A DNA stretch of 64,000 bases, taken from IMG/VR virus record IMGVR_UViG_3300005688_000042; one strand, 5' to 3'. Origin of the DNA: a virus. Lineage: Duplodnaviria; Heunggongvirae; Uroviricota; Caudoviricetes. The notes under the pieces are model-generated. The model was not told where the DNA came from. It made no database searches and saw only the letters and a program-made list of their open reading frames with translations. This document shows positions 7,531 through 59,057 of this stretch, piece by piece (within the stretch, counting starts at the first letter, position 1; every line of letters begins with the position of its first letter). Position numbers and translations under genes: made by a program.

Positions 7531-7824
7531 ATGGCTATCGCATTTAATTTACTTAGAAACGATGATCCAGAGAAAGAATACGTAATTATAAATTGGAACA
7601 ATGGTATCATTGTTGATGCTAATGTCTGGAAATTTAATGATGATGAATTTGAAGATGCTAAAAAGGTCTTACTTGAAGAATGGGGAGAACCGTATGGTTT
7701 TGCTTATAAATCGTGGGACGGTCCAATTGAAACTGGAAGAACTGTAGCATCTTATGTATTAGGTGTTGTTTTTAATAATAGCAACATGATTGACGTGCTT
7801 AAAAAGCACTTTAAGAAAACATAA
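7531..7824 (+). CDS. hypothetical protein (start trimmed to MAIAFNLL)
   Basis: ORF track 7474..7824; the ATG at 7531 follows the previous stop. Confidence 0.4.
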   Translation: MAIAFNLLRNDDPEKEYVIINWNNGIIVDANVWKFNDDEFEDAKKVLLEEWGEPYGFAYKSWDGPIETGRTVASYVLGVVFNNSNMIDVLKKHFKKT

Positions 7825-7921
7825 ATAGAATTGTAAGAATATTCAGTCGAAGGACAACTATGGGTTATCAACTATTATGAAAACTCCCATAACCGTCAAT
7901 AAAACTTACTGAATTAATAAT

Positions 7922-7997
7922 GTCTCGTTGACAGAGTGGCTATGTATCCGATTGCAACCCGGATTTTAGGGGAGTTCGATTCTCTCACGAGACTCCA
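7922..7997 (+). tRNA. tRNA, anticodon most likely GCA (Cys); encoded CCA
   Basis: Acceptor GTCTCGT/ACGAGAC, T-arm GGGAG-TTCGATT-CTCTC, anticodon loop ttGCAac; D-arm imperfect. Confidence 0.45.
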
Positions 7998-8011
7998 AAT
8001 TAGAGTACATT

Positions 8012-8197
8012 ATGGATAAGTATAAAGTATTTAAAAATGATGGTGGTAAATATTTTGTAAAAGAGTATGACTTCTTTGTTTCTCAAGGTGGACTAGATAG
8101 TCATTGGGGTAGAAACTGGAAAACGGTATTGGCAGATTCTATCGAACATGCTAGGCTAATCGCAGAGGATTTGGATTGGCCAAGGAAAACATATTGA
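8012..8197 (+). CDS. hypothetical protein
   Basis: ORF track. Confidence 0.4.
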   Translation: MDKYKVFKNDGGKYFVKEYDFFVSQGGLDSHWGRNWKTVLADSIEHARLIAEDLDWPRKTY

Positions 8198-8198
8198 T

Positions 8199-8411
8199 AT
8201 GCTGTATTGTGATCGTAACTGCGGTAAATCAATAGATGAAACCGAAAAGTGGATTGTGGAATTTGTTAAGAAACATGGAGCATGGCCAAGATGTGCATGT
8301 CAATGGGGTTGTGGACCATACGGTAGATGGCGCGAAACAAAAGACCCACAATGGTGGATTGATATGTTGGAACGGATTGAAGTAGTTGACAACAAGAAAA
8401 CAAAAGTGTAG
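8199..8411 (+). CDS. Cys-rich small protein (putative zinc binding)
   Basis: CDRNCGK...CACQWGCGPYG. Confidence 0.4.
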   Translation: MLYCDRNCGKSIDETEKWIVEFVKKHGAWPRCACQWGCGPYGRWRETKDPQWWIDMLERIEVVDNKKTKV

Positions 8412-8576
8412 AATGTACTAAATAGAATAAAATTGTTTAAGTCGAAGATGTAAAGGTTATCAAGCAAACAGCAGCACGTGGGTTCGAATCCCATCCGGGT
8501 ACTAGAAATAGAACTGGTAGGCAAGTGGTTAGCCAGCCGTCAAAACATCTTTCATTGTTTAACTTACTTGAACATG

Positions 8577-8584
8577 TATAAATA
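8577..8584 (+). promoter_or_regulatory. T4-type late promoter TATAAATA
   Basis: Exact TATAAATAG 25 nt upstream of an AGTCGA unit. Confidence 0.5.
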
Positions 8585-8693
8585 GAATAAAATTGTCAGT
8601 CGATTTGTAGAAGATTATCTTAAAAAAGACTGTGGGTTCGAATCCCACCTTGGGTATGGCACCAAAACTTTTACTAAAACTTATTGGCAAACA

Positions 8694-8701
8694 TATAAAT
8701 A
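8694..8701 (+). promoter_or_regulatory. T4-type late promoter TATAAATA
   Basis: Exact TATAAATAG. Confidence 0.5.
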
Positions 8702-8917
8702 GAATTTGTAGTCGATCTGCTAAGGATTATCTTTCAATTGGTGAATTGGGCCGCGTGCCCATAATTCCTTACGAATAACTTACTACAATAATTTTGAATT
8801 TATCAGTCGATAGATGATCATTATCTTCCCGCCAAAAATTTGGGAATTAGTTGGTTCGAATCCAACACTAGCGTCGGTTCGCATTTGATTGTTGATAACT
8901 TACTGGTAATGTATTAC

Positions 8918-9004
8918 GGACGGTTGGTGGAGTCAGGTTTATCACGTCACTCTTGAAAAGTGAAGCTCCGAAAGGGGCCGTGGGTTCGAATCCCACACTG
9001 TCCT
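8918..9004 (+). tRNA. tRNA-Ser (anticodon UGA), type II with long variable arm
   Basis: Acceptor GGACGGT/ACTGTCC, anticodon stem TCACT/AGTGA with loop cuUGAaa, long variable arm, T-arm GTGGG-TTCGAAT-CCCAC; followed by a T8 run. Confidence 0.6.
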
Positions 9005-9145
9005 CAGTTTTTTTTCACAGTCGATTAATCTGGTTTACCTTGGAGAAACGTTCGACTTAATCATCGGATCGCGAGTCTGGTTCAAACCCGGACAAAATAG
9101 CGAAAGCTATTCGAACCATTTTAGCAACTTATTGTGATTCAGAAA

Positions 9146-9172
9146 AAGGCCAGCTTGCGCTGGCCTTTTTCG
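9146..9172 (+). terminator. rho-independent terminator closing the tRNA/sRNA island
   Basis: GGCCAGC-ttgc-GCTGGCC followed by TTTTTCG. Confidence 0.65.
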
Positions 9173-9235: not shown

Positions 9236-9911
9236 AATGAAACAATATTATGAATGCCATGTCACAATGCTTGGTAAAGCTTCAGAGCTTAAACCTATCG
9301 TAGAAGAGACTGGTTGGATATTTTCGTGCATCGAAAATGACATCTGTTTAGGTGAAGGTGTGAAGTGTTATGCCACGATGCACTATTCTCATTCTAAACA
9401 TACAACTGCACAAGTTATAGAAAATGTGCATATTATCGCGCAGCATTTGCGATCTCGCATGGTTGATGTTATTCGCGAAAAAGTGGAATTGGTGATTTAT
9501 GACTCAAGATCGGATGCATGTAAAAAAGAGAAAGAGGATTCTAAGCCTAAATCTAATTCTAACAAGATCAAGGATAATGAAAAATTATTAAAAATTTTTA
9601 ATTGGTTCTCTGAGCATGCTCGATATACGGTAGATTGTATGTGTGTATCATATATGGAACTTTGTACAGATAGATCAAAGAAGGACGATTTCGAACTTAC
9701 AAAGAACCATTCATATGACGAATCACTCAGGGTGGAATTTGTAGTAGATGGAGAACGTTATACAATCCCTTATCAAGAATTATTGGATTGTATTATCGAT
9801 GGTGATTATATTGATGGTCTTGATTTAGAGATTGTCAGACACGTCATAGACGATGGCGCTTTTAATCGTCGTAAAGTACCACACAGAGATTCGGAGATTA
9901 GAAAATCATGA
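9236..9911 (+). CDS. hypothetical protein (start trimmed to MKQYYECHV)
   Basis: ORF track 9195..9911; its listed start overlaps the -10 box. Confidence 0.45.
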
Positions 9912-11076: not shown

Positions 11077-12186
11077 ATGTCCAATAATAAGTTAAACATC
11101 GCAAAGACCATCAAAGTCGGATTCAATAAGCGCTCTGATACATATACTGGAATGTTGGCGTACATCATCTATTATGATGAGAAGGGTGTGCTCCGCAAGG
11201 AAAAGAGTTGGGACTCTTGGCGCGATCATAAGATTGATGCACAGGAATTTCCGAACGAACCCACTTCTGGTTTTGTTCTAAACAAGAAGGTTGGCGATTA
11301 TCGTAGCGATTGGAATCATCGCATGGCCCACATTCGCGTGTATGATCCGCGTGGGTTTGAATTTGAAATTTCTGTAGAAAATCTTCTTTATATCCTTCAG
11401 GAATGTACTTCCACGAAGGGTAAGGGTCTTGAGGGAGAATTTGTGTATGCGTGGGATGGTACTAATCTAATTCTTCTCCCAACTGAATCAGTTGAATATC
11501 AGTCATCAAAGGTTTTCACAGATCATAAGCTATCAAAGGTTTCAAAGAGTGACATGATCCCCGGATGCGTCTACATGAATAAGGACATGGAAAATGTTCT
11601 TTATCTGGGCAGAGAGGATTACTACGAATTTGAAACTGATTATGGCTTTGATAATGATAAGTACACCGCTTATCAACAAGTGAATAAAGGAAAGAAACAC
11701 GTATTCCTTCATACTGATAAAGATAAGGCAGGAAAGTACTGGATTCAAACAGGATTTACAAAAATTGCATCCAAATTGTCTGATGCAATTTCTTCAGACT
11801 TTGCTGAAGAATATGAGAAATTAAAACAGTCATTCTATGGGTCTCCCGTAACCAAAGTTACATTTGAAGAGGTCGTACCTGAGATTGTAAATCACTACGG
11901 ACATACGAGAGTTATGGGCTATGGTTACTTCTCAAGTAAAGATGGAAAGTATTATGAATTTGACTATAACGGAATTAAAGATGATATCATCAATATTCGT
12001 TGTAGGATTGAATGTATGATTGACGGTTATAAGGTGTTATGTGTACGCCCAACACGAGATAGTTATAATTATTTTTATGATTATCATAAACTGCCAAAAG
12101 ATCAATTCAGTACACAATTAAATAATCTTAAATTATATCAAGCAATTGCCCATAATGAATATGGCAAAATCCACAAAATTCGATAA
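11077..12186 (+). CDS. hypothetical protein (369 aa)
   Basis: ORF track. Confidence 0.5.
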   Translation: MSNNKLNIAKTIKVGFNKRSDTYTGMLAYIIYYDEKGVLRKEKSWDSWRDHKIDAQEFPNEPTSGFVLNKKVGDYRSDWNHRMAHIRVYDPRGFEFEISVENLLYILQECTSTKGKGLEGEFVYAWDGTNLILLPTESVEYQSSKVFTDHKLSKVSKSDMIPGCVYMNKDMENVLYLGREDYYEFETDYGFDNDKYTAYQQVNKGKKHVFLHTDKDKAGKYWIQTGFTKIASKLSDAISSDFAEEYEKLKQSFYGSPVTKVTFEEVVPEIVNHYGHTRVMGYGYFSSKDGKYYEFDYNGIKDDIINIRCRIECMIDGYKVLCVRPTRDSYNYFYDYHKLPKDQFSTQLNNLKLYQAIAHNEYGKIHKIR

Positions 12187-21189: not shown

Positions 21190-21756
21190 ATGAGAATAAA
21201 AATATCTGAATATGCAAAAATGAAAGGTGTGAGCCAGCGCACAGTATGGCGCTGGATCAAAAATAACGAACTACAAATAGAACATACACAAACTGGCAGG
21301 GTTCGCATCTTACTTGATGTCAATAAAGAGACAAAAGTCGCTGTTTATGCCCGAGTTTCGAGTACAGAAAACAAAGATAATCTTGATAGACAAAAAGATC
21401 GAGTTGTGTCTTATTGCAATGCCAAAGGATACAAAATAGAGAAGATTGTCACAGAAATTGGTTCTGGTTTAAATGACAACAGACCAAAACTTGAGTCGCT
21501 TTTAATAGATAAAGACATTGACTTGATTGTTGTGGAACACAAAGATCGATTAGCCCGTTTCGGCACCAATTACATCGAGAAATTGCTGGCTGTTTCTGAC
21601 AGAAAGATTGAGGTCATCAATCCGGTTCAGGACGAAAAAGAAGATTTAATGCAAGATTTCGTGTCACTTGTCACATCTTTTACAGCCCGGTTGTATGGAT
21701 TGCGTAGGTCCAAGCGACAGACCGAAAAGCTGATCCAATCCTTGGAAGCTGCATGA
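21190..21756 (+). CDS. tnpA: IS607-type TnpA: MerR-like HTH + serine recombinase (resolvase) domain
   Basis: KMKGVSQRTVWRW HTH; catalytic VYARVSS...RQ. Confidence 0.7.
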   Translation: MRIKISEYAKMKGVSQRTVWRWIKNNELQIEHTQTGRVRILLDVNKETKVAVYARVSSTENKDNLDRQKDRVVSYCNAKGYKIEKIVTEIGSGLNDNRPKLESLLIDKDIDLIVVEHKDRLARFGTNYIEKLLAVSDRKIEVINPVQDEKEDLMQDFVSLVTSFTARLYGLRRSKRQTEKLIQSLEAA

Positions 21757-22982
21757 AAGCTAGACGTGTAGAAAAGCATGCCATATGTCGCACAAGTCAT
21801 TATTTTAGTGACTTGTGTGATCTGACTCACAAGTCCAAAAACTTGTATAATGCATCTTTGTATGCCATTCGTCAGCATTTTTTCTCCACAAAAACATACA
21901 TCGGCTATTCAAAATTAGCTGGTGATTTCGCAAAAACTAATATAGATTACCAGCAATTACCTAGAAAAGTGTCACAACAGACCTTAAAATTGGTTGATCA
22001 AAATTTTAGATCATTCTTTGCTTTGTTGAAAGCAAAGAAAAATGACAAGGTACGTATACCAAATTACCTAGACAAATCAGGTAAATATGTGACAATTTTC
22101 ACTAATCAGGCATTATCTTTCGTTAAACCTGGATATGTAAAATTATCTGGTTATGACATCTTTATAAAGACAGAAAAAACAGATATACAACAGGTTAGAG
22201 TTGTTCCGAGAAGCAATCATTTTGATATAGAAGTGATATATTTGACAGATATAGAAGACAAAAGAAGTGACAATAGTCGTTATTTGTCCGTTGATATCGG
22301 TTTAAGTAATTTAGTAGCAACAGCGTCAAATGTCATGAAACCATTTTTAATAAATGGAAAACCATTGAAAGCTATAAACCAATATTATAATAAAAGAAAA
22401 GCAGAACTACAATCAAAATTAGGAGACAAAAGAAAGACAAGTAATAGAATCAACGCCATTTCTAGAAAAAGAAATGACAAAATTCGTGATTATTTACATA
22501 AAGCAAGTACGTGGCTTATTAATCAATTAGATTTCAACCAAATAAACACCTTAATAATCGGTGAAAATAAAGGTTGGAAACAAGAGATAAACATCGGAAA
22601 GAAAAATAATCAAAATTTTGTGTCAGTGCCATTCAATAAATTGAAACAAATGTTGACATATAAAGCCGAATCAAGAGGAATTAATGTCATTTGTCAGGAA
22701 GAGAGCTATACATCAAAGGCATCATGTTTGAGTAATGATATGATTCCGACATATGGAGAGAAGACGGATGACATGAAATTTTCTGGATATAGAAAAACCA
22801 GAGGAATTTATAAAGACAAATGTCTTGATTTAGAAATAAATGCAGATGTCAATGGCGCATATAATATTATGAGAAAAGCAGTCGGAGATGTAAAAATTGA
22901 TCCGATAGAGGCATGTAGTTGGCCCTTGTCAGTGAAAATTTCACTTGACACAAAACCTAAGTTATGTCATTATTGGCATTGA
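21753..22982 (+). CDS. tnpB: TnpB (OrfB) RuvC-like protein; C-terminal zinc finger degenerate
   Basis: RuvC-I VDIGLSN, RuvC-II IIGENKGW, RuvC-III NADVNGAYNI; both CxxC pairs lost (CLSND, CLDLE). Confidence 0.65.
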   Translation: MKARRVEKHAICRTSHYFSDLCDLTHKSKNLYNASLYAIRQHFFSTKTYIGYSKLAGDFAKTNIDYQQLPRKVSQQTLKLVDQNFRSFFALLKAKKNDKVRIPNYLDKSGKYVTIFTNQALSFVKPGYVKLSGYDIFIKTEKTDIQQVRVVPRSNHFDIEVIYLTDIEDKRSDNSRYLSVDIGLSNLVATASNVMKPFLINGKPLKAINQYYNKRKAELQSKLGDKRKTSNRINAISRKRNDKIRDYLHKASTWLINQLDFNQINTLIIGENKGWKQEINIGKKNNQNFVSVPFNKLKQMLTYKAESRGINVICQEESYTSKASCLSNDMIPTYGEKTDDMKFSGYRKTRGIYKDKCLDLEINADVNGAYNIMRKAVGDVKIDPIEACSWPLSVKISLDTKPKLCHYWH

Positions 22983-28403: not shown

Positions 28404-28506
28404 GGGGATGTCGTATAACGCGTGAGTAGAATGCATTCACCACATTTGGAATTACGCATGATGTTAAAATTGTGAAATGGTGGTTCGAATCCATCTGTCC
28501 TCGCCA
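28404..28506 (+). tRNA. tRNA-like gene, ~103 nt, canonical 3' half with CCA; 5' half/anticodon unresolved
   Basis: T-arm GGTGG-TTCGAAT-CCATC, 3' acceptor TGTCCTC-G-CCA, possible 5' partner GGGGATG; internal palindrome GAATGCATTC. Confidence 0.3.
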
Positions 28507-28702: not shown

Positions 28703-28801
28703 AGATCGGTGGTGCAATGGCAGCATACCAGTCTCCTAAATGTTTTTGTAAAAGAATATTTAGGAAAACTGATGATCGGGGTTCAAGTCCCTGCCGGTCT
28801 G
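28703..28801 (+). tRNA. over-long tRNA-like gene (~98 nt) with a 7-bp internal hairpin CCTAAAT/ATTTAGG
   Basis: Acceptor AGATCGG/CCGGTCT, D-stem GTGC/GCAT, T-arm CGGGG-TTCAAGT-CCCTG; anticodon not assignable. Confidence 0.3.
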
Positions 28802-28817
28802 CAAAATAATATTATAT

Positions 28818-28942
28818 GGATCATTGGTATGTCTGGGTATTACGGCTGCCTGTGGGTGTAAGAGTTTTAGGCTCTGATCAGTTCAAATCTGAAATCACCA
28901 AAAGTAAGCAGCATTAGGTTGGTTCGATTCCAACATGGTCCT
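28818..28942 (+). tRNA. composite tRNA-like structure (~125 nt) with two T-arm-like hairpins
   Basis: Outer acceptor GGATCAT/ATGGTCC, T-arm GTTGG-TTCGATT-CCAAC; second T-arm-like TCAG-TTCAAAT-CTGA. Confidence 0.25.
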
Positions 28943-28959
28943 CAATTTTAAGGAATATC

Positions 28960-35615: not shown

Positions 35616-35774
35616 ATGATGATAAAATTAGTAGATTTCGCAAAGACGCAAGGTGTATGTTACAGAACAGCTTACAATTGGTTCCACCTTGGCTACATCG
35701 AAGGTGCATACCAAACGGCATCACGCACTATATTGGTGCCGAAAGACGCCAAAGTTAAGAGAAAAAGCGAATAA
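35616..35774 (+). CDS. truncated IS607 TnpA: MerR-like HTH only (52 aa)
   Basis: Hand translation MMIKLVDFAKTQGVCYRTAYNWFHLGYIEG... parallels the TnpA N-termini of copies 1 and 3; no resolvase domain; AAAGGA RBS. Confidence 0.45.
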   Translation: MMIKLVDFAKTQGVCYRTAYNWFHLGYIEGAYQTASRTILVPKDAKVKRKSE

Positions 35775-35781
35775 AATCGCC

Positions 35782-36891
35782 GTGAATCTTGCCCACAAAA
35801 TTCAGTTAAAACCCAACAAAGAACAGAAGCAGATGCTGGCGCGAGCCGCAGGCTGCGCCAGATTCACTTACAATTGGGCTTTGGCCGAATGGAATAAGCA
35901 ATATATGGCAGGCGAGAAACCGTCAGCATTAAAATTGAAAAAGCAATTCAATTCCATTAAAAAGCAGGAATTTCCATGGATATACGATTCACCAAAAGAT
36001 GCAAATCAACAACCATTTACAAATTTACAAAGTGCTTTCAAAGGTTTCTTCGACAAACGAACCGCGTATCCGCAGTTTAAGAAAAAGTACAAACGCGATT
36101 CATTTTATGTCTCAAACGATCAATTTCACATAACTGATAATATGATTAAACTTCCACTAATTGGAAAAATTAAATTGGAAGAGACATTGAGATTTGAAGG
36201 TAAGATCATGTCTGCTGTGGTCAGTCGAAAAGCTGATAAATGGTTTATATCAATTGCGGTAGAGATGAATGATTATGGTAAAGCTAGAACATCAGATAAC
36301 ACCATAGCAATTGATTTTGGCATCAAAACTTTCGCGGTTGATCAAAATGGCGCATCTTTCGATGCACCAAAACCATTGAAAAACAAGCTTCAAAAGCTGA
36401 AAAGGTATCAGAGAATTTGTTCAAAGAGAAAAGATGGAAGTCAAAACAAAAAGAAACAAAGATGTAAAGTAGCAAAAATACATAAAGAAATCAGTGACTT
36501 ACGTCACGATTTCACACACAAATTTACAACTCAAATCTGTCGCGAAAACCAAACGATAATTATAGAAGATTTGAATTTGAAAAGCTGGAGCAAAATGTTT
36601 GGGAAGTCAGGAATTGATGGTGGCGTGGGCGAAGCCCGACGCCAACTCAAATACAAGTCATTGATTTATAACAACAATTTAGTTGTAATAGATAAATGGG
36701 CACCGACTTCCAAATCATGTTCTAGTTGTGGTAGCTATAAATCAGACTTGAAATTGAGTGATCGAATCTTCTGCTGTACGGATTGTGGTCATAAAATGGA
36801 CAGAGATTGGAATGCTGCCAAAAATATTTATGTCTCAGGAATGAGACAACTAGGGATGGCTTGTCCCGAAGTTACGCCTTTGGACATCTGA
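35782..36891 (+). CDS. tnpB: TnpB (OrfB), apparently intact; probable GTG start
   Basis: RuvC-I IDFGIKT, RuvC-II IIIEDLN, zinc finger CSSCGS...CTDCGH, RuvC-III DRDWNAAKNI; no in-frame ATG after the HTH ORF stop. Confidence 0.6.
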   Translation: MNLAHKIQLKPNKEQKQMLARAAGCARFTYNWALAEWNKQYMAGEKPSALKLKKQFNSIKKQEFPWIYDSPKDANQQPFTNLQSAFKGFFDKRTAYPQFKKKYKRDSFYVSNDQFHITDNMIKLPLIGKIKLEETLRFEGKIMSAVVSRKADKWFISIAVEMNDYGKARTSDNTIAIDFGIKTFAVDQNGASFDAPKPLKNKLQKLKRYQRICSKRKDGSQNKKKQRCKVAKIHKEISDLRHDFTHKFTTQICRENQTIIIEDLNLKSWSKMFGKSGIDGGVGEARRQLKYKSLIYNNNLVVIDKWAPTSKSCSSCGSYKSDLKLSDRIFCCTDCGHKMDRDWNAAKNIYVSGMRQLGMACPEVTPLDI

Positions 36892-38654: not shown

Positions 38655-38729
38655 GCCCATTTAGCTCAGAGAAAGAGCAGCGATAGCGTATAGCGGCGAG
38701 CGCGGGTTCAAGTCCCGTAGTGGGCTCCA
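38655..38729 (+). tRNA. tRNA-like gene with CCA, D-arm GCTC/GAGC, anticodon arm non-canonical (probable pseudo-tRNA)
   Basis: Acceptor GCCCATT/AGTGGGC, T-arm GCGGG-TTCAAGT-CCCGT; homologue of 40931..41002. Confidence 0.35.
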
Positions 38730-52156: not shown

Positions 52157-52735
52157 ATGAAACTTCGACAATGGGCAAATAAACAAGGGATTTCCTACTT
52201 GACAGCGCTTCGCTGGTTCAAGGCAGGTAAAATTCCAAATTCAACTCAATTCCCATCTGGCACCATCATAATACAAGATGAGCTGCCTGTCAACACGGAT
52301 GAAAATAAATCAGTACATATCTATGCCAGAGTTTCTTCACATGAGAAGAAAGATGATCTAACCAGACAAGCCCAAAGATGTGTTGAATTTGCTAATGCCA
52401 ATGGATACGAAATAATCTCAGTTACAAAAGAAATTGCTTCTGGCATGAATGATAAGCGACCAAAATTAATTAAATTGATTGAACAGAAACCAAAACATAT
52501 CATTGTTGAGCACAAGGACAGATTGACCAGATTTGGATTCAATTACTTTGATTTATTACTTCCTATGATTGGTTGTAAATTAACTGTTATGAATAGAGAT
52601 CAAGAAGAGCATGCGGATTTAATGAAAGATTTAGTTTCTGTTATTACATCATTTTGTTGTAAATTATATGGTCTGCGCAGAGCGCAGAACAAGAAACAAA
52701 AGATCCAACAAATATTGGAAGACGAAAATGTTTAA
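52157..52735 (+). CDS. tnpA: IS607-type TnpA serine recombinase with MerR-like HTH
   Basis: NKQGISYLTALRWF HTH; IYARVSS...RQ. Confidence 0.7.
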   Translation: MKLRQWANKQGISYLTALRWFKAGKIPNSTQFPSGTIIIQDELPVNTDENKSVHIYARVSSHEKKDDLTRQAQRCVEFANANGYEIISVTKEIASGMNDKRPKLIKLIEQKPKHIIVEHKDRLTRFGFNYFDLLLPMIGCKLTVMNRDQEEHADLMKDLVSVITSFCCKLYGLRRAQNKKQKIQQILEDENV

Positions 52736-53783
52736 AAGAGCTATTAAGTTGAAATCATATGCAACAGAAGCAAAGCAAAATAAAGTCCTTGCTTTGATTA
52801 GTCGCTATAGATGTCAAGTTAATATGTTTATAGATTACATCTGGAACAACAAAGAAACAGCAAAATTAGATGCTAAAACATTGAAATCTATAGATAAAGT
52901 TCAAGATTTATCCGAAAGATATAAATCCAATGCATTGAAACAGGCACTTCAAATTTGTAAAAGCGAAAAGAACAAATCCAAACCAGATTTCAATGGTTAT
53001 CCGGTGCTAGATGCAAAGTTCGTGTCTATTGACACGAACAAATCTTCAAAAGAATTTGATTTGTGGATAAAATTATCAACATTGAAATCTGGAAGACGAA
53101 TAGAAATACCAACAAAGAAGCATGCACATTTAAACAAATGGCTTAAAACTGGTACATTGATACAAGGCTGTGAGCTTCGCCCAGACGGTTTCATCGTCTG
53201 GGTAGAGGCGAACCCACCTGAAAAGAAAAATAGCTTGAAGGTCGGTGTAGACATCGGAATGAACAAGCTATTGACCACTAGCTATGGTGAAAAATTAGGA
53301 ACTGATTTTAATCGAATCAATGATAAAATTCTAAGGAAGAAAAAGAACAGTAAGAATTACAAAAGAGCCATAGCAGAAAAGAAAAACTATATAAATCAAT
53401 CAGTTAACTTGCTTCCGTGGACAGAAATGGAAGTGCTTTGCTATGAAAACATTAAAAATTTGAAGAAAGGAAGTACAAAAAGAAATAAACAAACAAGACA
53501 AAAACAGCAACATTGGAGCTATAGACAAGTTATAGAAGCTATGAAAATGAAGGCCCAAGCTAACCGTGTTAGCTTGGTCTATGTTAATCCGGCTTACACT
53601 TCTCAGAAATGTTCCGCTTGTGGTAATATTGCTGCATCCAGTCGATATCTAGAAAATTATTGTTGCATCAGTTGCGGTCATACACAAGACGCAGATGTAA
53701 ATGCAGCAAAAAATATTCTACACAAAGGACTAGACTGGATAACGAGCTTAGAGTCCGTTAAGTCAAAAAGTGCTATCATATGA
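52728..53783 (+). CDS. tnpB: TnpB (OrfB), intact RuvC motifs and zinc finger (start trimmed to MFKRAIKL, ATGTTTAA overlap)
   Basis: VDIGMNK, YENIKNL, YTSQKCSACG...CISCGH, DADVNAAKNI. Confidence 0.7.
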   Translation: MFKRAIKLKSYATEAKQNKVLALISRYRCQVNMFIDYIWNNKETAKLDAKTLKSIDKVQDLSERYKSNALKQALQICKSEKNKSKPDFNGYPVLDAKFVSIDTNKSSKEFDLWIKLSTLKSGRRIEIPTKKHAHLNKWLKTGTLIQGCELRPDGFIVWVEANPPEKKNSLKVGVDIGMNKLLTTSYGEKLGTDFNRINDKILRKKKNSKNYKRAIAEKKNYINQSVNLLPWTEMEVLCYENIKNLKKGSTKRNKQTRQKQQHWSYRQVIEAMKMKAQANRVSLVYVNPAYTSQKCSACGNIAASSRYLENYCCISCGHTQDADVNAAKNILHKGLDWITSLESVKSKSAII

Positions 53784-58352: not shown

Positions 58353-58425
58353 GCCTCGGTAGCTTAGTGGCCTAAAGCGACTTTCTCTAAAATTGTGATC
58401 GTGAGTTCAAATCTCACCCGAGGCG
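58353..58425 (+). tRNA. tRNA with anticodon CUA (amber-suppressor-like); anticodon stem has two U-U mismatches
   Basis: Acceptor GCCTCGG/CCGAGGC disc G, D GCTT/AAGC, loop cuCUAaa, T-arm GTGAG-TTCAAAT-CTCAC; alternative registers pair worse. Confidence 0.4.
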
Positions 58426-58433
58426 ATATAATC

Positions 58434-59057
58434 ATGTTCCGTTTCCTTGTAAAAGTTCCTAACAAAGTCGGGGTTGCATTTTCCGGTGGAGTCGATTCAT
58501 TGGCTATCGCACATTTCCTGAAAAAGGGAAATAAGGAAGTCACCCTATACCATTTTAACCATCTATGTCAATACTCGGCAGACATTGAGTATAAATGTTG
58601 TCGTCTGGCTGATAGACTCAGAATGCCTATTGTTCTGGCTAGTTATCATGGACAACGTGAGAAGGGACAATCCCTTGAAGACGCATGGCGTAGAGCTAGG
58701 TATCGTTTTCTTAGATCATGTGATCAACAGATTATCACTGGTCATCATATCGATGATGCCGTAGAAACGTGGGTGTGGTCTTCATTACATGGTGAAGGTA
58801 AGTTGATCCCTGTAACTTCTGGTAACATCATCCGTCCGTTTTTGACAACAGAAAAATCAGTTTTCGAAAATCATTGTAAAATCAATAAGTTAGATGTTGT
58901 TGAAGATGAAATGAACAAAGATTTACATCTAATGCGCAATTATATGAGAGCAAATATGATGCAACACATCTATCATATTAATCCGGGATTACGGAAAGTA
59001 ATCAAGAAAAAATACATAAATATGATTAATATTCCAGAATTAGAAGATGACAGTTAA
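58434..59057 (+). CDS. PP-loop ATPase, tRNA(Ile)-lysidine synthetase (TilS)-like; 3' end replaced by the downstream insertion
   Basis: SGGVDS PP-loop; start trimmed to MFRF to clear the tRNA; C-terminal 45 aa duplicated at 60720-60833. Confidence 0.55.
   Translation: MFRFLVKVPNKVGVAFSGGVDSLAIAHFLKKGNKEVTLYHFNHLCQYSADIEYKCCRLADRLRMPIVLASYHGQREKGQSLEDAWRRARYRFLRSCDQQIITGHHIDDAVETWVWSSLHGEGKLIPVTSGNIIRPFLTTEKSVFENHCKINKLDVVEDEMNKDLHLMRNYMRANMMQHIYHINPGLRKVIKKKYINMINIPELEDDS

What the first reader, a model, noticed from the sequence alone, without database searches (positions are those of the whole stretch)
7840..9172. Array of late-promoter-driven tRNA-like small-RNA units sharing an AGTCGA leader motif
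At least six units repeat the pattern TATAAATAG(aat), then 8-17 nt, AGTCGA, a conserved GATTATCT or GGTTATCAA box, and a hairpin identical to a tRNA T-arm (GTGGGTTCGAATCCCAC and variants). None has a pairing acceptor stem. They are interleaved with two canonical tRNAs and closed by a terminator at 9146-9172. They could be analogues of the T4 stable RNAs C/D, processed pseudo-tRNAs or a new small-RNA family.
Basis: seen in the sequence. Interest (0 to 1): 0.6.

Follow-up and report, generated by a model that had tools for sequence, protein, structure and literature searches.

The report
Array of six phage Y RNAs
The six repeated units are genes for bacterial-type Y RNAs, the small tRNA-mimicking RNAs that normally partner the Ro60 ring protein; they lie among tRNA genes of a large T4-like phage, and no Ro60 gene was found in the sequence I could read.

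Summary
There are six units: 7841-7914, 8436-8572, 8594-8689, 8706-8788, 8801-8908 and 9015-9137. In each, a 7-bp stem joins the two ends (NNNNAGU / AYUNNNN, covarying). Then come a bulged C, G·U and A-U pairs, a GRUUAUC box 9-12 nt further on, and a 3' AACUUAYU box. This is the anatomy of bacterial and phage Y RNAs (YrlA/YrlB type).

- The signature is about 15-40 times enriched in the 1.5 kb upstream of Ro60 genes, on the Ro60 strand, in 80 viral contigs.
- A covariance model built only from Ro60-adjacent RNAs finds the six units with exact ends.
- A model built only from this phage group's units finds 37 full-length RNAs next to Ro60 genes and none in controls.
- Unit 2 has T arm, acceptor-like hairpin and D arm in YrlA order. 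Units 3, 5 and 6 have a T arm but no D arm. Units 1 and 4 are short hairpins.
- The array is conserved in related phages, one on a 315-kb contig.
- No Ro60 gene lies from the contig end (about 7.9 kb upstream) to about 62 kb downstream.

Verdict: a new member of a known kind, missed by Rfam, of moderate interest.

The parts
7820..7831 (+). Promoter-like box CATAAATAGAAT upstream of unit 1.
   Evidence: Read from the sequence. It has one mismatch to T4 late TATAAATA. Function is inferred.
7841..7914 (+). Unit 1: a short Y RNA (YrlB-like hairpin, 74 nt). Terminal stem AUUCAGU/ACUGAAU, GUCGAAG motif, GGUUAUC box, no T-arm.
   Evidence: Model R1, built only from Ro60-adjacent RNAs, scores it 27.5 bits (E=8.8e-5) with these exact ends. 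The minimum-energy fold keeps the terminal stem. Orthologues are L330:1679-1751, L333:1479-1552 and L097:6419-6493.
7922..7997 (+). tRNA-Cys(GCA)-like gene, 7 nt after unit 1.
   Evidence: Called by ARAGORN but not reported by the Rfam tRNA model at E<=10. It is conserved after unit 1 in L330 and L333.
8386..8428 (+). Sigma70-like promoter TTGACA-17-TAGAAT that overlaps the ACTAAATAGAAT box upstream of unit 2.
   Evidence: The consensus scan scores it 11 of 12. This is a consensus match only.
8436..8572 (+). Unit 2: a full YrlA-like Y RNA (137 nt).
- Terminal stem 8436-8442 with 8566-8572.
- GUCGAAG motif at 8441-8447.
- GGUUAUC box at 8455-8461.
- T-arm at 8478-8494.
- Acceptor-like hairpin at 8495-8517.
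- D-arm at 8518-8534.
- Stem 2 3' strand CAUCUUU at 8546-8552.
   Evidence: The Rfam YrlA model aligns it full length, but at only 15.4 bits against a gathering score of 69. The joint alignment with Ro60-adjacent YrlA RNAs gives 5 helices with 91.6% of cells paired, and 22 of 27 pairs change on both sides. Model R3, built from it and its orthologues, finds 37 Ro60-adjacent RNAs.
8577..8588 (+). Promoter-like box TATAAATAGAAT upstream of unit 3.
   Evidence: Read from the sequence. It is conserved upstream of the unit 3 orthologues in L330 and L334.
8594..8689 (+). Unit 3: a Y RNA with V hairpin, T-arm (GUGGG-UUCGAAU-CCCAC) and acceptor-like hairpin, but no D-arm (96 nt).
   Evidence: R1 scores it 12.9 bits and R2 45.1 bits, with these exact ends. 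The predicted fold shows these elements. Four orthologues keep 23 pairs, 4 of them through compensatory changes.
8694..8705 (+). Promoter-like box TATAAATAGAAT upstream of unit 4.
   Evidence: Read from the sequence. It is conserved in L330 and, in part (TATAAATAGATT), in L333.
8706..8788 (+). Unit 4: a short Y RNA (83 nt) made of a long bulged hairpin with no T-arm.
   Evidence: R1 scores it 18.7 bits (E=0.016) with these exact ends. Four orthologues keep 21 pairs, 2 of them through compensatory changes, for example GGAUUAU/AUAAUUCC against GGGUUAU/AUAACCCC.
8801..8908 (+). Unit 5: a Y RNA with V hairpin, T-arm (GUUGG-UUCGAAU-CCAAC) and a small acceptor-like hairpin, but no D-arm (108 nt). 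It has no promoter box of its own.
   Evidence: R1 scores it 8.5 bits and R2 29.7 bits (E=2e-4), with these exact ends. The predicted fold shows these elements. Orthologues are L333:3454-3560 and L097:9379-9485.
8918..9005 (+). tRNA-Ser(UGA), a canonical class II tRNA.
   Evidence: Found by ARAGORN and by Rfam tRNA at 54.5 bits.
9015..9137 (+). Unit 6: a Y RNA with a T-like arm (GUCUGG-UUCAAAC-CCGGAC) and an AUAGC-GAAA-GCUAU hairpin (123 nt). Its box is degenerate (UUUACC).
   Evidence: R1 scores it 8.4 bits and R2 19.3 bits, with these exact ends. The predicted fold shows these elements. Orthologues are L330:3463-3584 and L333:3666-3790, with a further copy read in L334 at about 1297-1400.
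9146..9172 (+). Intrinsic-terminator-like hairpin (GGCCAGC-UUGC-GCUGGCC followed by U5) that closes the array.
   Evidence: Read from the sequence, with weak Rfam matches to terminator-bearing families. The tool's terminator scan did not list it. In L330, L333 and L334 the stem sequence differs but still pairs.

Best explanation
The region holds six paralogous genes for bacterial-type Y RNAs.
- One is a complete YrlA-like RNA (T-arm, acceptor-like hairpin, D-arm).
- Three have a T-arm but no D-arm.
- Two are short YrlB-like hairpins.
- They are interleaved with tRNA-Cys and tRNA-Ser.

Shown:
- All six have the family's anatomy.
- The family is physically linked to Ro60 genes in other viruses.
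- Unit 2 is homologous to Ro60-adjacent YrlA RNAs.
- The array is conserved in related phages; one relative lies on a 315-kb contig and a 307-kb contig carries a protein of this window.

Inferred mechanism:
- The units are transcribed from four promoters, as unit 1 plus tRNA-Cys, unit 2, unit 3, and units 4-5, tRNA-Ser and unit 6. Transcription stops at the terminator at 9146-9172.
- The tRNA-processing enzymes (RNase P and 3' trimming) release the RNAs. The spacers between units and tRNAs are only 7-12 nt.
- Each RNA closes its ends into a 7-bp stem followed by a bulged C and G·U/A-U pairs. This presents the conserved GUCGA(AG) strand that Ro60 proteins recognise.
- The variable upper module (tRNA-like or hairpin) then acts as an adaptor. 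As in the Ro60-Y RNA-PNPase complexes of Deinococcus, Salmonella and Thermus phage phiLo, it would tether a Ro60 ring to PNPase or other RNA enzymes, or gate access to the ring. The Ro60 would be encoded elsewhere in the phage genome or supplied by the host as Rsr. The effect would be to redirect RNA decay and quality control during infection.
- Six different modules suggest several partners or substrates.
For: 1. Motifs. All six units carry GUCGA. Units 1 and 2 carry the full GNCGAAN0-1G motif that Chen et al. 2014 (PMC4201824) define as the likely Rsr-binding site. A YUAY (UUAU) lies at nt 22-25 of units 2-5 (nt 25-28 in unit 1; UUAC in unit 6), where that paper places it in Salmonella YrlA.

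2. Terminal stem. It covaries among the six units: 54 of 54 cells are paired and 0 of 500 shuffles reach the observed score.

3. Linkage to Ro60. In 80 viral Ro60 loci the signature G.CGA-N8-13-[AGT]TTA[TC]C occurs 116 times on the Ro60 strand and 17 times on the other strand. Of the 116, 92 lie in the 1.5 kb upstream of Ro60. That is 90 per 100 kb, against 2-6 per 100 kb elsewhere in the same loci. When the stem and bulged C are also required, the counts are 40 against 0.

4. Model R1, built only from 23 Ro60-adjacent units, puts all six window units in its top 10 hits over 128 kb of searched strand, each with exact ends. Unit 1 reaches E=8.8e-5. The same model gives one weak hit in 627 kb of controls that each contain a chance TAAATAGAAT...AGTCGA.

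5. Model R3, built only from this phage group's units, finds 37 full-length RNAs in the Ro60 loci, all on the Ro60 strand (best 66.9 bits, E=1.5e-10). It finds none in 627 kb of controls.

6. The joint alignment of unit 2 types with Ro60-adjacent YrlA RNAs gives five shared helices. 91.6% of cells are paired, against 40-51% when slid, and 22 of 27 pairs change on both sides.

7. The array, and its links to tRNA-Cys and tRNA-Ser, are conserved in relatives L330/L331, L333, L334/L335 and L097, and in diverged form in L120. Orthologues show compensatory changes.

8. Precedent. Phage Ro60 with upstream Y-like RNAs that bind host PNPase is documented for Thermus phage phiLo (PMC12135203).
Against: - No Ro60/TROVE gene was found in the window. 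Pfam scans of 101 ORFs were negative, as was tblastn with four Ro60 proteins at E<=10. The known rule is that the RNA lies within 4 kb of Ro60 on the same strand.
- No Ro60 was found about 10 kb to the right of the window (L239) or in the relatives' loci.
- The Rfam YrlA model scores unit 2 at only 15.4 bits, against a gathering score of 69.
- Only units 1 and 2 have the complete GNCGAAG motif. Units 5 and 6 score weakly with the independent model R1 (8.5 and 8.4 bits).
- Predicted folding energies are unremarkable (z from -2.0 to +0.4).
- Expression, processing and protein binding are all untested.
Confidence: 0.8

Rival explanations
1. The RNAs are Y-RNA-derived tRNA mimics that work without Ro60. 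They would act directly as decoys or adaptors for tRNA-binding host factors such as PNPase, RNase P, modification enzymes or tRNA-targeting defence nucleases, and this phage lineage has no Ro60 partner at all.
For: No Ro60 was found in the window, about 10 kb to its right, or in any relative's locus. The units sit among tRNA genes of a phage that also carries T4-type RNA ligase 1. Yrl RNAs of phage phiLo bind PNPase on their own in gel-shift assays (PMC12135203). YrlA RNAs are substrates of tRNA enzymes (PMC4201824).
Against: The part of the RNA that is most strictly conserved among all six paralogues, and shared with Ro60-linked RNAs, is the Ro60-binding helix (GUCGA, bulged C, 3' ACUUAYU). 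The tRNA-like module is absent from units 1 and 4. Only about 72 kb of a genome of about 310 kb could be read, so a Ro60 gene elsewhere in it, or in the host, is not excluded.
Confidence: 0.13
2. The units are decaying tRNA pseudogenes or recombination scars in a tRNA cluster and have no function of their own.
For: Rfam's tRNA model aligns part of unit 3 at 18.3 bits. ARAGORN calls the 5' part of a unit 8 type copy in L330 a tRNA-Arg. The string AGTCGA...GGTTATC can also be read as the end of an acceptor stem plus a D-arm, as in the genuine tRNA-Met in L100.
Against: The terminal stems are not adjacent to the T-arms and covary. The same six types persist in several diverged phages and keep their folds through compensatory changes. 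The units match Ro60-linked RNAs full length, and two of them have no tRNA-like part.
Confidence: 0.03
3. The units are counterparts of the T4 stable RNAs C and D (species 1 and 2), or an unrelated new small-RNA family of T4-like phages.
For: The genomic setting is the same: small stable RNAs inside a tRNA cluster of a T4-like phage. T4 rnaC carries a T-arm, a GCCGA and a CACTTGCC string.
Against: Models R1 and R2 give no full-length match to T4 rnaC or rnaD. Only the T-arm of rnaC scores, at 14.6 bits. The reciprocal matches to Ro60-linked RNAs already place the units in a known family.
Confidence: 0.03

Closest known systems
YrlA, the bacterial and phage 'Y RNA-like A' (Rfam RF02553; Chen et al. 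2014, PMC4201824)
   Same: The 5' and 3' ends pair. A GNCGAA(N)G motif lies near the 5' end and a YUAY at nt 22-25. T-arm, acceptor-like hairpin and D-arm come in that permuted order (unit 2). The family is known from phages, 22 of them in the 2014 survey.
   Different: Unit 2 scores only 15.4 bits against a gathering score of 69. No Ro60 gene lies within 4 kb. Three units have the T-arm but lack the D-arm. There are six genes rather than one or two. The host phage is T4-like rather than an actinophage.
YrlB of Salmonella, and the short Y-like RNAs upstream of viral Ro60 genes (loci L258, L264, L268, L306 and others)
   Same: Units 1 and 4 are a terminal stem, bulged C, GGUUAUC-topped second stem and loop with no tRNA-like module. 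A model built from the viral ones finds units 1 and 4 with exact ends.
   Different: The terminal stem ends in AGU/ACU rather than GG(G)Y/RYCC. Ro60 is not adjacent.
Yrl1 and Yrl2 of Thermus phage phiLo (PMC12135203)
   Same: They are phage-encoded Y-like RNAs with the CGAA motif in a stem-bulge-stem. They are proposed to recruit host PNPase.
   Different: In phiLo the RNAs lie directly upstream of the phage Ro60 gene and their binding was shown experimentally. Here there is no adjacent Ro60 and nothing has been tested.
Metazoan Y RNAs (hY1, hY3, hY4, hY5; Rfam RF00019)
   Same: The ends pair into a helix with a bulged C, and the 5' strand is conserved (GGUCCGA there, AGUCGA here). The 3' strand is also alike (CUUGACU there, ACUUACU here). 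This comparison rests on my own knowledge of the hY sequences.
   Different: There is no Rfam match to RF00019. The helix above the bulge is one pair shorter. The internal modules are tRNA-like.
T4 species 1 and 2 RNAs (rnaC, rnaD)
   Same: They are small stable RNAs embedded in the tRNA cluster of a T4-type phage.
   Different: Neither gives a full-length match to the Y RNA models, and they lack the GRUUAUC box and the terminal-stem arrangement.

Membership tests
Bacterial/phage Y RNA (YrlA/YrlB type) | The 5' and 3' ends pair into a terminal stem. | tested here: met
   All six units have a 7-bp stem. 54 of 54 cells are paired, four positions covary, and slid controls give 31-47%. The minimum-energy fold keeps the stem in 5 of 6 units.
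Bacterial/phage Y RNA (YrlA/YrlB type) | A GNCGAAN0-1G (CGAA) motif near the 5' end, the presumed Ro60 contact (PMC4201824, PMC12135203). | tested here: inconclusive
   GUCGAAG is complete in units 1 and 2. Units 3-6 have GUCGAU, that is GNCGA without the second A. Among Ro60-adjacent viral units, GYCGA followed by U or C is also common.
Bacterial/phage Y RNA (YrlA/YrlB type) | Sequence and structure similarity to RNAs encoded next to Ro60 genes. | tested here: met
   R1, built from Ro60-adjacent units only, finds all six units with exact ends. Unit 1 reaches E=8.8e-5, unit 4 E=0.016 and unit 2 E=0.042. R3, built from this phage group only, finds 37 Ro60-adjacent RNAs and none in controls.
Bacterial/phage Y RNA (YrlA/YrlB type) | Encoded within about 4 kb of a Ro60 (TROVE) gene on the same strand. 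| tested here: not met
   There is no TROVE hit in 101 window ORFs. tblastn with four Ro60 proteins finds nothing in the window, L239, L330-L338, L120 or L097. The contig ends about 70 nt to the left of the window.
Bacterial/phage Y RNA (YrlA/YrlB type) | Binds Ro60/Rsr. | not testable with these tools
   This needs co-immunoprecipitation or gel-shift assays.
YrlA (Rfam RF02553) | A tRNA-like domain with T-arm, acceptor-like hairpin and D-arm in that order. | tested here: met
   This is met for unit 2 only. Units 3, 5 and 6 have the T-arm and hairpin but no D-arm. Units 1 and 4 have neither.
YrlA (Rfam RF02553) | A score at or above Rfam's gathering threshold of 69 bits. | tested here: not met
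   The best score is 15.4 bits, for unit 2 (E=0.79 in a 161-nt search). There is no hit at gathering level anywhere in the window.
Canonical tRNA | A cloverleaf in which the acceptor stem adjoins the T-arm; detection by ARAGORN or Rfam RF00005. | tested here: not met
   No unit is called by ARAGORN. Rfam tRNA gives only a partial 18.3-bit alignment to unit 3, with the anticodon stem deleted. The 3' strand of the terminal stem lies 40-70 nt beyond the T-arm.
T4 rnaC/rnaD | Similarity in sequence and structure to T4 species 1 and 2 RNAs. | tested here: not met
   R1 and R2 give no full-length hit on T4 70908-71171.

The most novel reading that the evidence does not exclude
A lineage of T4-like phages of about 310 kb keeps a conserved battery of six to eight specialised Y RNAs but no Ro60 of its own. 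The RNAs would capture the host's Rsr/PNPase machinery, or act as Ro60-independent tRNA-mimic adaptors or decoys. This would be the first case of 'orphan' Y RNAs used as viral effectors. The same analysis indicates that arrays of 3-6 Y RNAs are common upstream of viral Ro60 genes (20 of the 40 loci with the signature), which is more than the one or two per locus described in the papers I read.
Probability: 0.3. Interest if true: 0.7.

Novelty: new member of a known kind. Interest (0 to 1): 0.45.

Why it matters
Y RNAs and Ro60 are a conserved RNA-surveillance pair whose function in bacteria and phages is still poorly understood. This locus matters for three reasons.

- Current annotation (Rfam and the tRNA finders) misses whole arrays of these RNAs.
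- Phages can carry six distinct Y RNA types. Some have a T-arm without a D-arm, which offers a natural series for working out what the variable module recruits.
- The RNAs can be separated from any nearby Ro60 gene. This raises a testable question: does a phage use its Y RNAs to commandeer a host Ro60/PNPase complex?

The simple signature (G.CGA, then N8-13, then DUUAYC, plus a 7-bp stem joining the ends and a bulged C) and the models built here could be used to annotate such RNAs widely.

Tried and rejected
- **Rfam.** The gathering search found only tRNAs. At E<=10 the only relevant hit was YrlA at 15.4 bits on unit 2.
- **GenBank phages.** Megablast and blastn of the region found only tRNA-Ser matches.
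- **Two pattern scans of IMG/VR** (AGTCGA...GGTTCGAATCC and TAAATAGAAT...AGTCGA) filled up with chance and tRNA hits. They were useful only because three of the first set happened to contain Ro60.
- **L100 as a bridge.** Its AGTCGA...GGTTATC match is a genuine tRNA-Met next to Ro60 (Rfam 55.9 bits). I dropped it and replaced it with systematic enrichment and model tests.
- **L120.** This relative, with 56% identity in the downstream gene, lacks the array at the syntenic site. Diverged copies turned up elsewhere in the locus, beside tRNA-Cys and tRNA-Ser.
- **A divergent Ro60 in the window.** The idea came from Bas63 gp130 (PMC11482910).
  - hhalign of the 369-, 595- and 557-aa ORFs against a Ro60 profile was negative.
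  - The 369-aa protein models as beta-rich (pLDDT 83) with no PDB match.
  - Homologues of the 595-aa protein carry tail-fibre-type domains.
  - The other ORFs of 300 aa or more are an ATP-grasp protein, DUF4419, three TnpB, rIIA, rIIB, DUF7487 and Rnl1.
- **T4 rnaC/rnaD** are not members by R1 or R2.
- **Strain variants** of the same phage are 100% identical across the array and add no information.
- **The rest of the genome** could not be read, because look-ups are limited to window proteins and listed homologues.
- **Two review papers** on bacterial Y RNAs were not held in the library.
Full report
**What is in the sequence**

The window is from a large T4-like phage.
- It encodes rIIA- and rIIB-like proteins, T4-type RNA ligase 1 and many scattered tRNAs.
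- The source contig is ENA ERZ761599 NODE_5 (128,640 bp) and ends about 70 nt to the left of the window.
- An identical protein from this window occurs on a 306,759-bp contig.

Between 7820 and 9172 the + strand carries six AGTCGA motifs, out of 23 in the whole window on both strands. Each is followed after 9 nt (12 nt in unit 1) by a GRTTATC-type box.

This defines six units with exact ends:
- U1 7841-7914
- U2 8436-8572
- U3 8594-8689
- U4 8706-8788
- U5 8801-8908
- U6 9015-9137

Each unit closes into a 7-bp terminal stem, followed by a bulged C and then G·U and A-U pairs.
- All 54 pair cells are standard pairs, against 31-47% when the 3' partner is slid by 1-3 columns.
- The four variable positions all covary.
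- No shuffle out of 500 reaches the observed score.

A purely structural search (G.CGA, box, 7-bp stem, bulged C, GA/TT) finds exactly these six on the + strand and none on the - strand. The background in control viral DNA is 0.3-0.4 per 100 kb per strand.

- Only U1-U4 have the (T)ATAAATAGAAT box.
- U1 and U4 have no T-arm.
- The exact T-loop string GGTTCGAATCC occurs in U2, U3 and U5. U6 has a variant.
- tRNA-Ser is canonical. 'tRNA-Cys' is called by ARAGORN only.
- The terminator hairpin at 9146-9172 is real and conserved in relatives, with stem changes that keep the pairing.

**What the units are**

The 5' motif GUCGA(AG) matches the GNCGAAN0-1G motif that Chen et al. 2014 give as the likely Ro60-binding site of bacterial Y RNAs. 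The UUAU inside the box lies at nt 22-25 in U2-U5, where that paper places a conserved YUAY (PMC4201824).

Rfam's YrlA model aligns U2 over its full length, in the order T-arm, hairpin, D-arm. The score is only 15.4 bits, far below the gathering score of 69. I therefore tested the idea independently of Rfam, in four ways.

1. **Linkage to Ro60.** I fetched 80 viral contigs that encode Ro60.
   - The signature G.CGA-N8-13-[AGT]TTA[TC]C occurs 116 times on the Ro60 strand and 17 times on the other strand. Unrelated viral loci have 2-3 per 100 kb.
   - 92 of the 116 lie in the 1.5 kb upstream of Ro60, which is 90 per 100 kb against 2-6 elsewhere in the same loci. 40 of the 80 loci have at least one.
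   - When the terminal stem and bulged C are also required, the counts are 40 against 0.

2. **A model built without the window.** Covariance model R1 was built only from 23 short Ro60-adjacent units.
   - I ran it over the whole window with filters off. All six units were among its ten best hits, each with exactly the ends I had drawn by hand.
   - Scores: U1 27.5 bits (E=8.8e-5), U4 18.7 (0.016), U2 17.0 (0.042), U3 12.9, U5 8.5, U6 8.4.
   - In 627 kb of control loci that each contain a chance TAAATAGAAT...AGTCGA, it gave one weak hit.

3. **The reverse test.** Model R3 was built only from U2 and its relatives in this phage group, with no Ro60-adjacent sequence.
   - It finds 37 full-length RNAs at E<=0.01 (best 66.9 bits, E=1.5e-10) in the 670 kb of Ro60 loci. 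All 37 are on the Ro60 strand.
   - It finds none in the 627 kb of controls.

4. **A joint alignment.** U2-type units were aligned with four Ro60-adjacent YrlA-like RNAs.
   - RNAalifold gives five shared helices: terminal stem, a second stem in which GGU of the box pairs with AYC of a conserved 3' block, T-arm, acceptor-like hairpin and D-arm.
   - 91.6% of cells are paired, against 68% in shuffles and 40-51% when slid.
   - 22 of 27 pairs change on both sides.

**Types of unit**

The predicted folds and the alignments show three types.
- U2 is a complete YrlA-like RNA.
- U3, U5 and U6 have a V hairpin, a T-arm and an acceptor-like hairpin but no D-arm.
- U1 and U4 are long bulged hairpins of the YrlB type.

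All three types also occur upstream of viral Ro60 genes. Folding energies are unremarkable (z from -2.0 to +0.4). The case for structure therefore rests on covariation, not on stability.

**Conservation in related phages**

Homologues of the 369-aa neighbouring protein, at about 70% identity, led to syntenic loci. A specific pattern scan found a 314,956-bp IMG/VR contig (L097).

These loci carry orthologues of U1-U6 in the same order. They also carry two further types, here called U7 and U8.
- U1 is again followed by tRNA-Cys.
- tRNA-Ser again precedes U6.
- The terminator is again present.

Orthologues differ mainly in loops and keep their helices through compensatory changes. A more distant relative, L120, has diverged copies flanking tRNA-Cys and tRNA-Ser.

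**The missing partner**

Known Y RNAs lie within about 4 kb of Ro60 on the same strand (PMC4201824). Here I found no Ro60.
- Pfam scans of 101 ORFs gave no TROVE hit.
- tblastn with four Ro60 proteins gave nothing at E<=10 in the window, in the 10 kb beyond its right end, or in any relative's locus.
- A preprint reports a phage Ro60 recognisable only by structure (PMC11482910), so I checked the large unannotated ORFs.
  - The 369-aa protein is beta-rich with no PDB match.
  - The 595-aa protein belongs to a tail-fibre-like family.
  - All other ORFs of 300 aa or more have other assignments.
- Only about 72 kb of a genome of about 310 kb could be read. A Ro60 gene elsewhere in it, or a host Rsr, remains possible.

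**How it most likely works**

This part is inferred.
- Four promoter-like boxes precede U1-U4. They match T4-late TATAAATA exactly for U3 and U4, and they also contain a sigma70 -10-like TAGAAT.
- These would give the transcripts U1 plus tRNA-Cys, U2, U3, and U4-U5-tRNA-Ser-U6, ending at the terminator.
- The 7-12-nt spacers suggest that RNase P and 3' trimming release the RNAs.
- Each RNA presents the conserved bulged helix to a Ro60-type ring.
- Its variable module tethers or gates partners such as PNPase, as in the bacterial Ro60-Y RNA-PNPase complex and the phage phiLo complex (PMC12135203).

I put about 0.9 on family membership and about 0.8 on the overall explanation. The main rival, at 0.13, is that these RNAs act without Ro60.

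**Novelty**

Y RNAs in phages have been known since 2014. This is a new member of a known kind. It has some notable features:
- six paralogues;
- forms with a T-arm but no D-arm;
- no adjacent Ro60;
- a T-like host phage;
- complete invisibility to Rfam.

T4's RNAs C and D are not detectable relatives.

Noticed in passing
window 58353-58425 and about 58434-59057: A tRNA with anticodon CUA (an amber-suppressor type). ARAGORN labels it 'tRNA-Pyl' and Rfam's tRNA model scores it 56.2 bits. It lies immediately upstream of a PP-loop ATPase (PF01171, TilS-like).
   Followed up: no
window 21190-22982, 35653-36891, 52157-53783: Three TnpB-like genes (OrfB_IS605 plus the Cas12f1-like TNB domain). Two are preceded by serine-recombinase (Resolvase) ORFs, so they look like IS607-type elements inside a phage genome.
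   Followed up: no
window 28404-28505, 28703-28801, 28816-28945, 38655-38726: Unusually long or odd tRNA-like genes that ARAGORN misses.
- A T-arm, GGTTCGAATCC, at 28482.
- A 99-nt Rfam tRNA with an insertion in the anticodon region.
- An element of about 130 nt with an acceptor-like GGATCAT/ATGGTCC pairing and a T-arm.
- An Rfam-only tRNA at 38655.

These may be intron-containing tRNAs or further tRNA mimics.
   Followed up: partly
window 7922-7997: The 'tRNA-Cys' after unit 1 is called by ARAGORN but not by Rfam's tRNA model even at E<=10. Its T-stem is rich in G·U pairs and it has an A31·C39 mismatch. It is nevertheless conserved in L330 and L333.
   Followed up: partly
Viral Ro60 loci L249-L328, for example L258 3312-3990, L264 3472-3940, L268 2907-3730 and L306 3595-3820: Arrays of 3-6 Y-RNA-like units, often mixed with tRNAs, lie within 1.5 kb upstream of Ro60 in about half (20 of 40) of the viral loci that carry the signature. 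This is more per locus than the one or two described in the papers I read.
   Followed up: partly
L345 (T4 NC_000866 70908-71046, rnaC): T4 species 1 RNA contains a T-arm, a GCCGA and a 3' CACTTGCC string, which recall Y RNA motifs. It does not match the Y RNA models full length.
   Followed up: partly
window 11077-12186: A 369-aa protein (phrog_2475) with more than 4000 homologues, many in tRNA-rich phages (Bacillus SPO1-like, Pseudomonas PAK_P1-like). It has no Pfam domain. The AlphaFold model is beta-rich (pLDDT 83) and has no PDB fold match. It served as a handy synteny marker for this phage group.
   Followed up: partly
window 9237-9911: The 224-aa protein directly downstream of the array begins MKQYYECHVTMLG. 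This is an HxTx-like motif reminiscent of 2H phosphoesterases, which are RNA-end-healing enzymes. It has no Pfam or PHROG hit. It is conserved in L120, L330 and L334 but replaced in L333.
   Followed up: no
window 1; ERZ761599 NODE_5 end; ERZ761590 NODE_3 start: Independent assemblies break within about 35-70 nt of the left edge of the window. This suggests a genome end or a repeat at that point.
   Followed up: no
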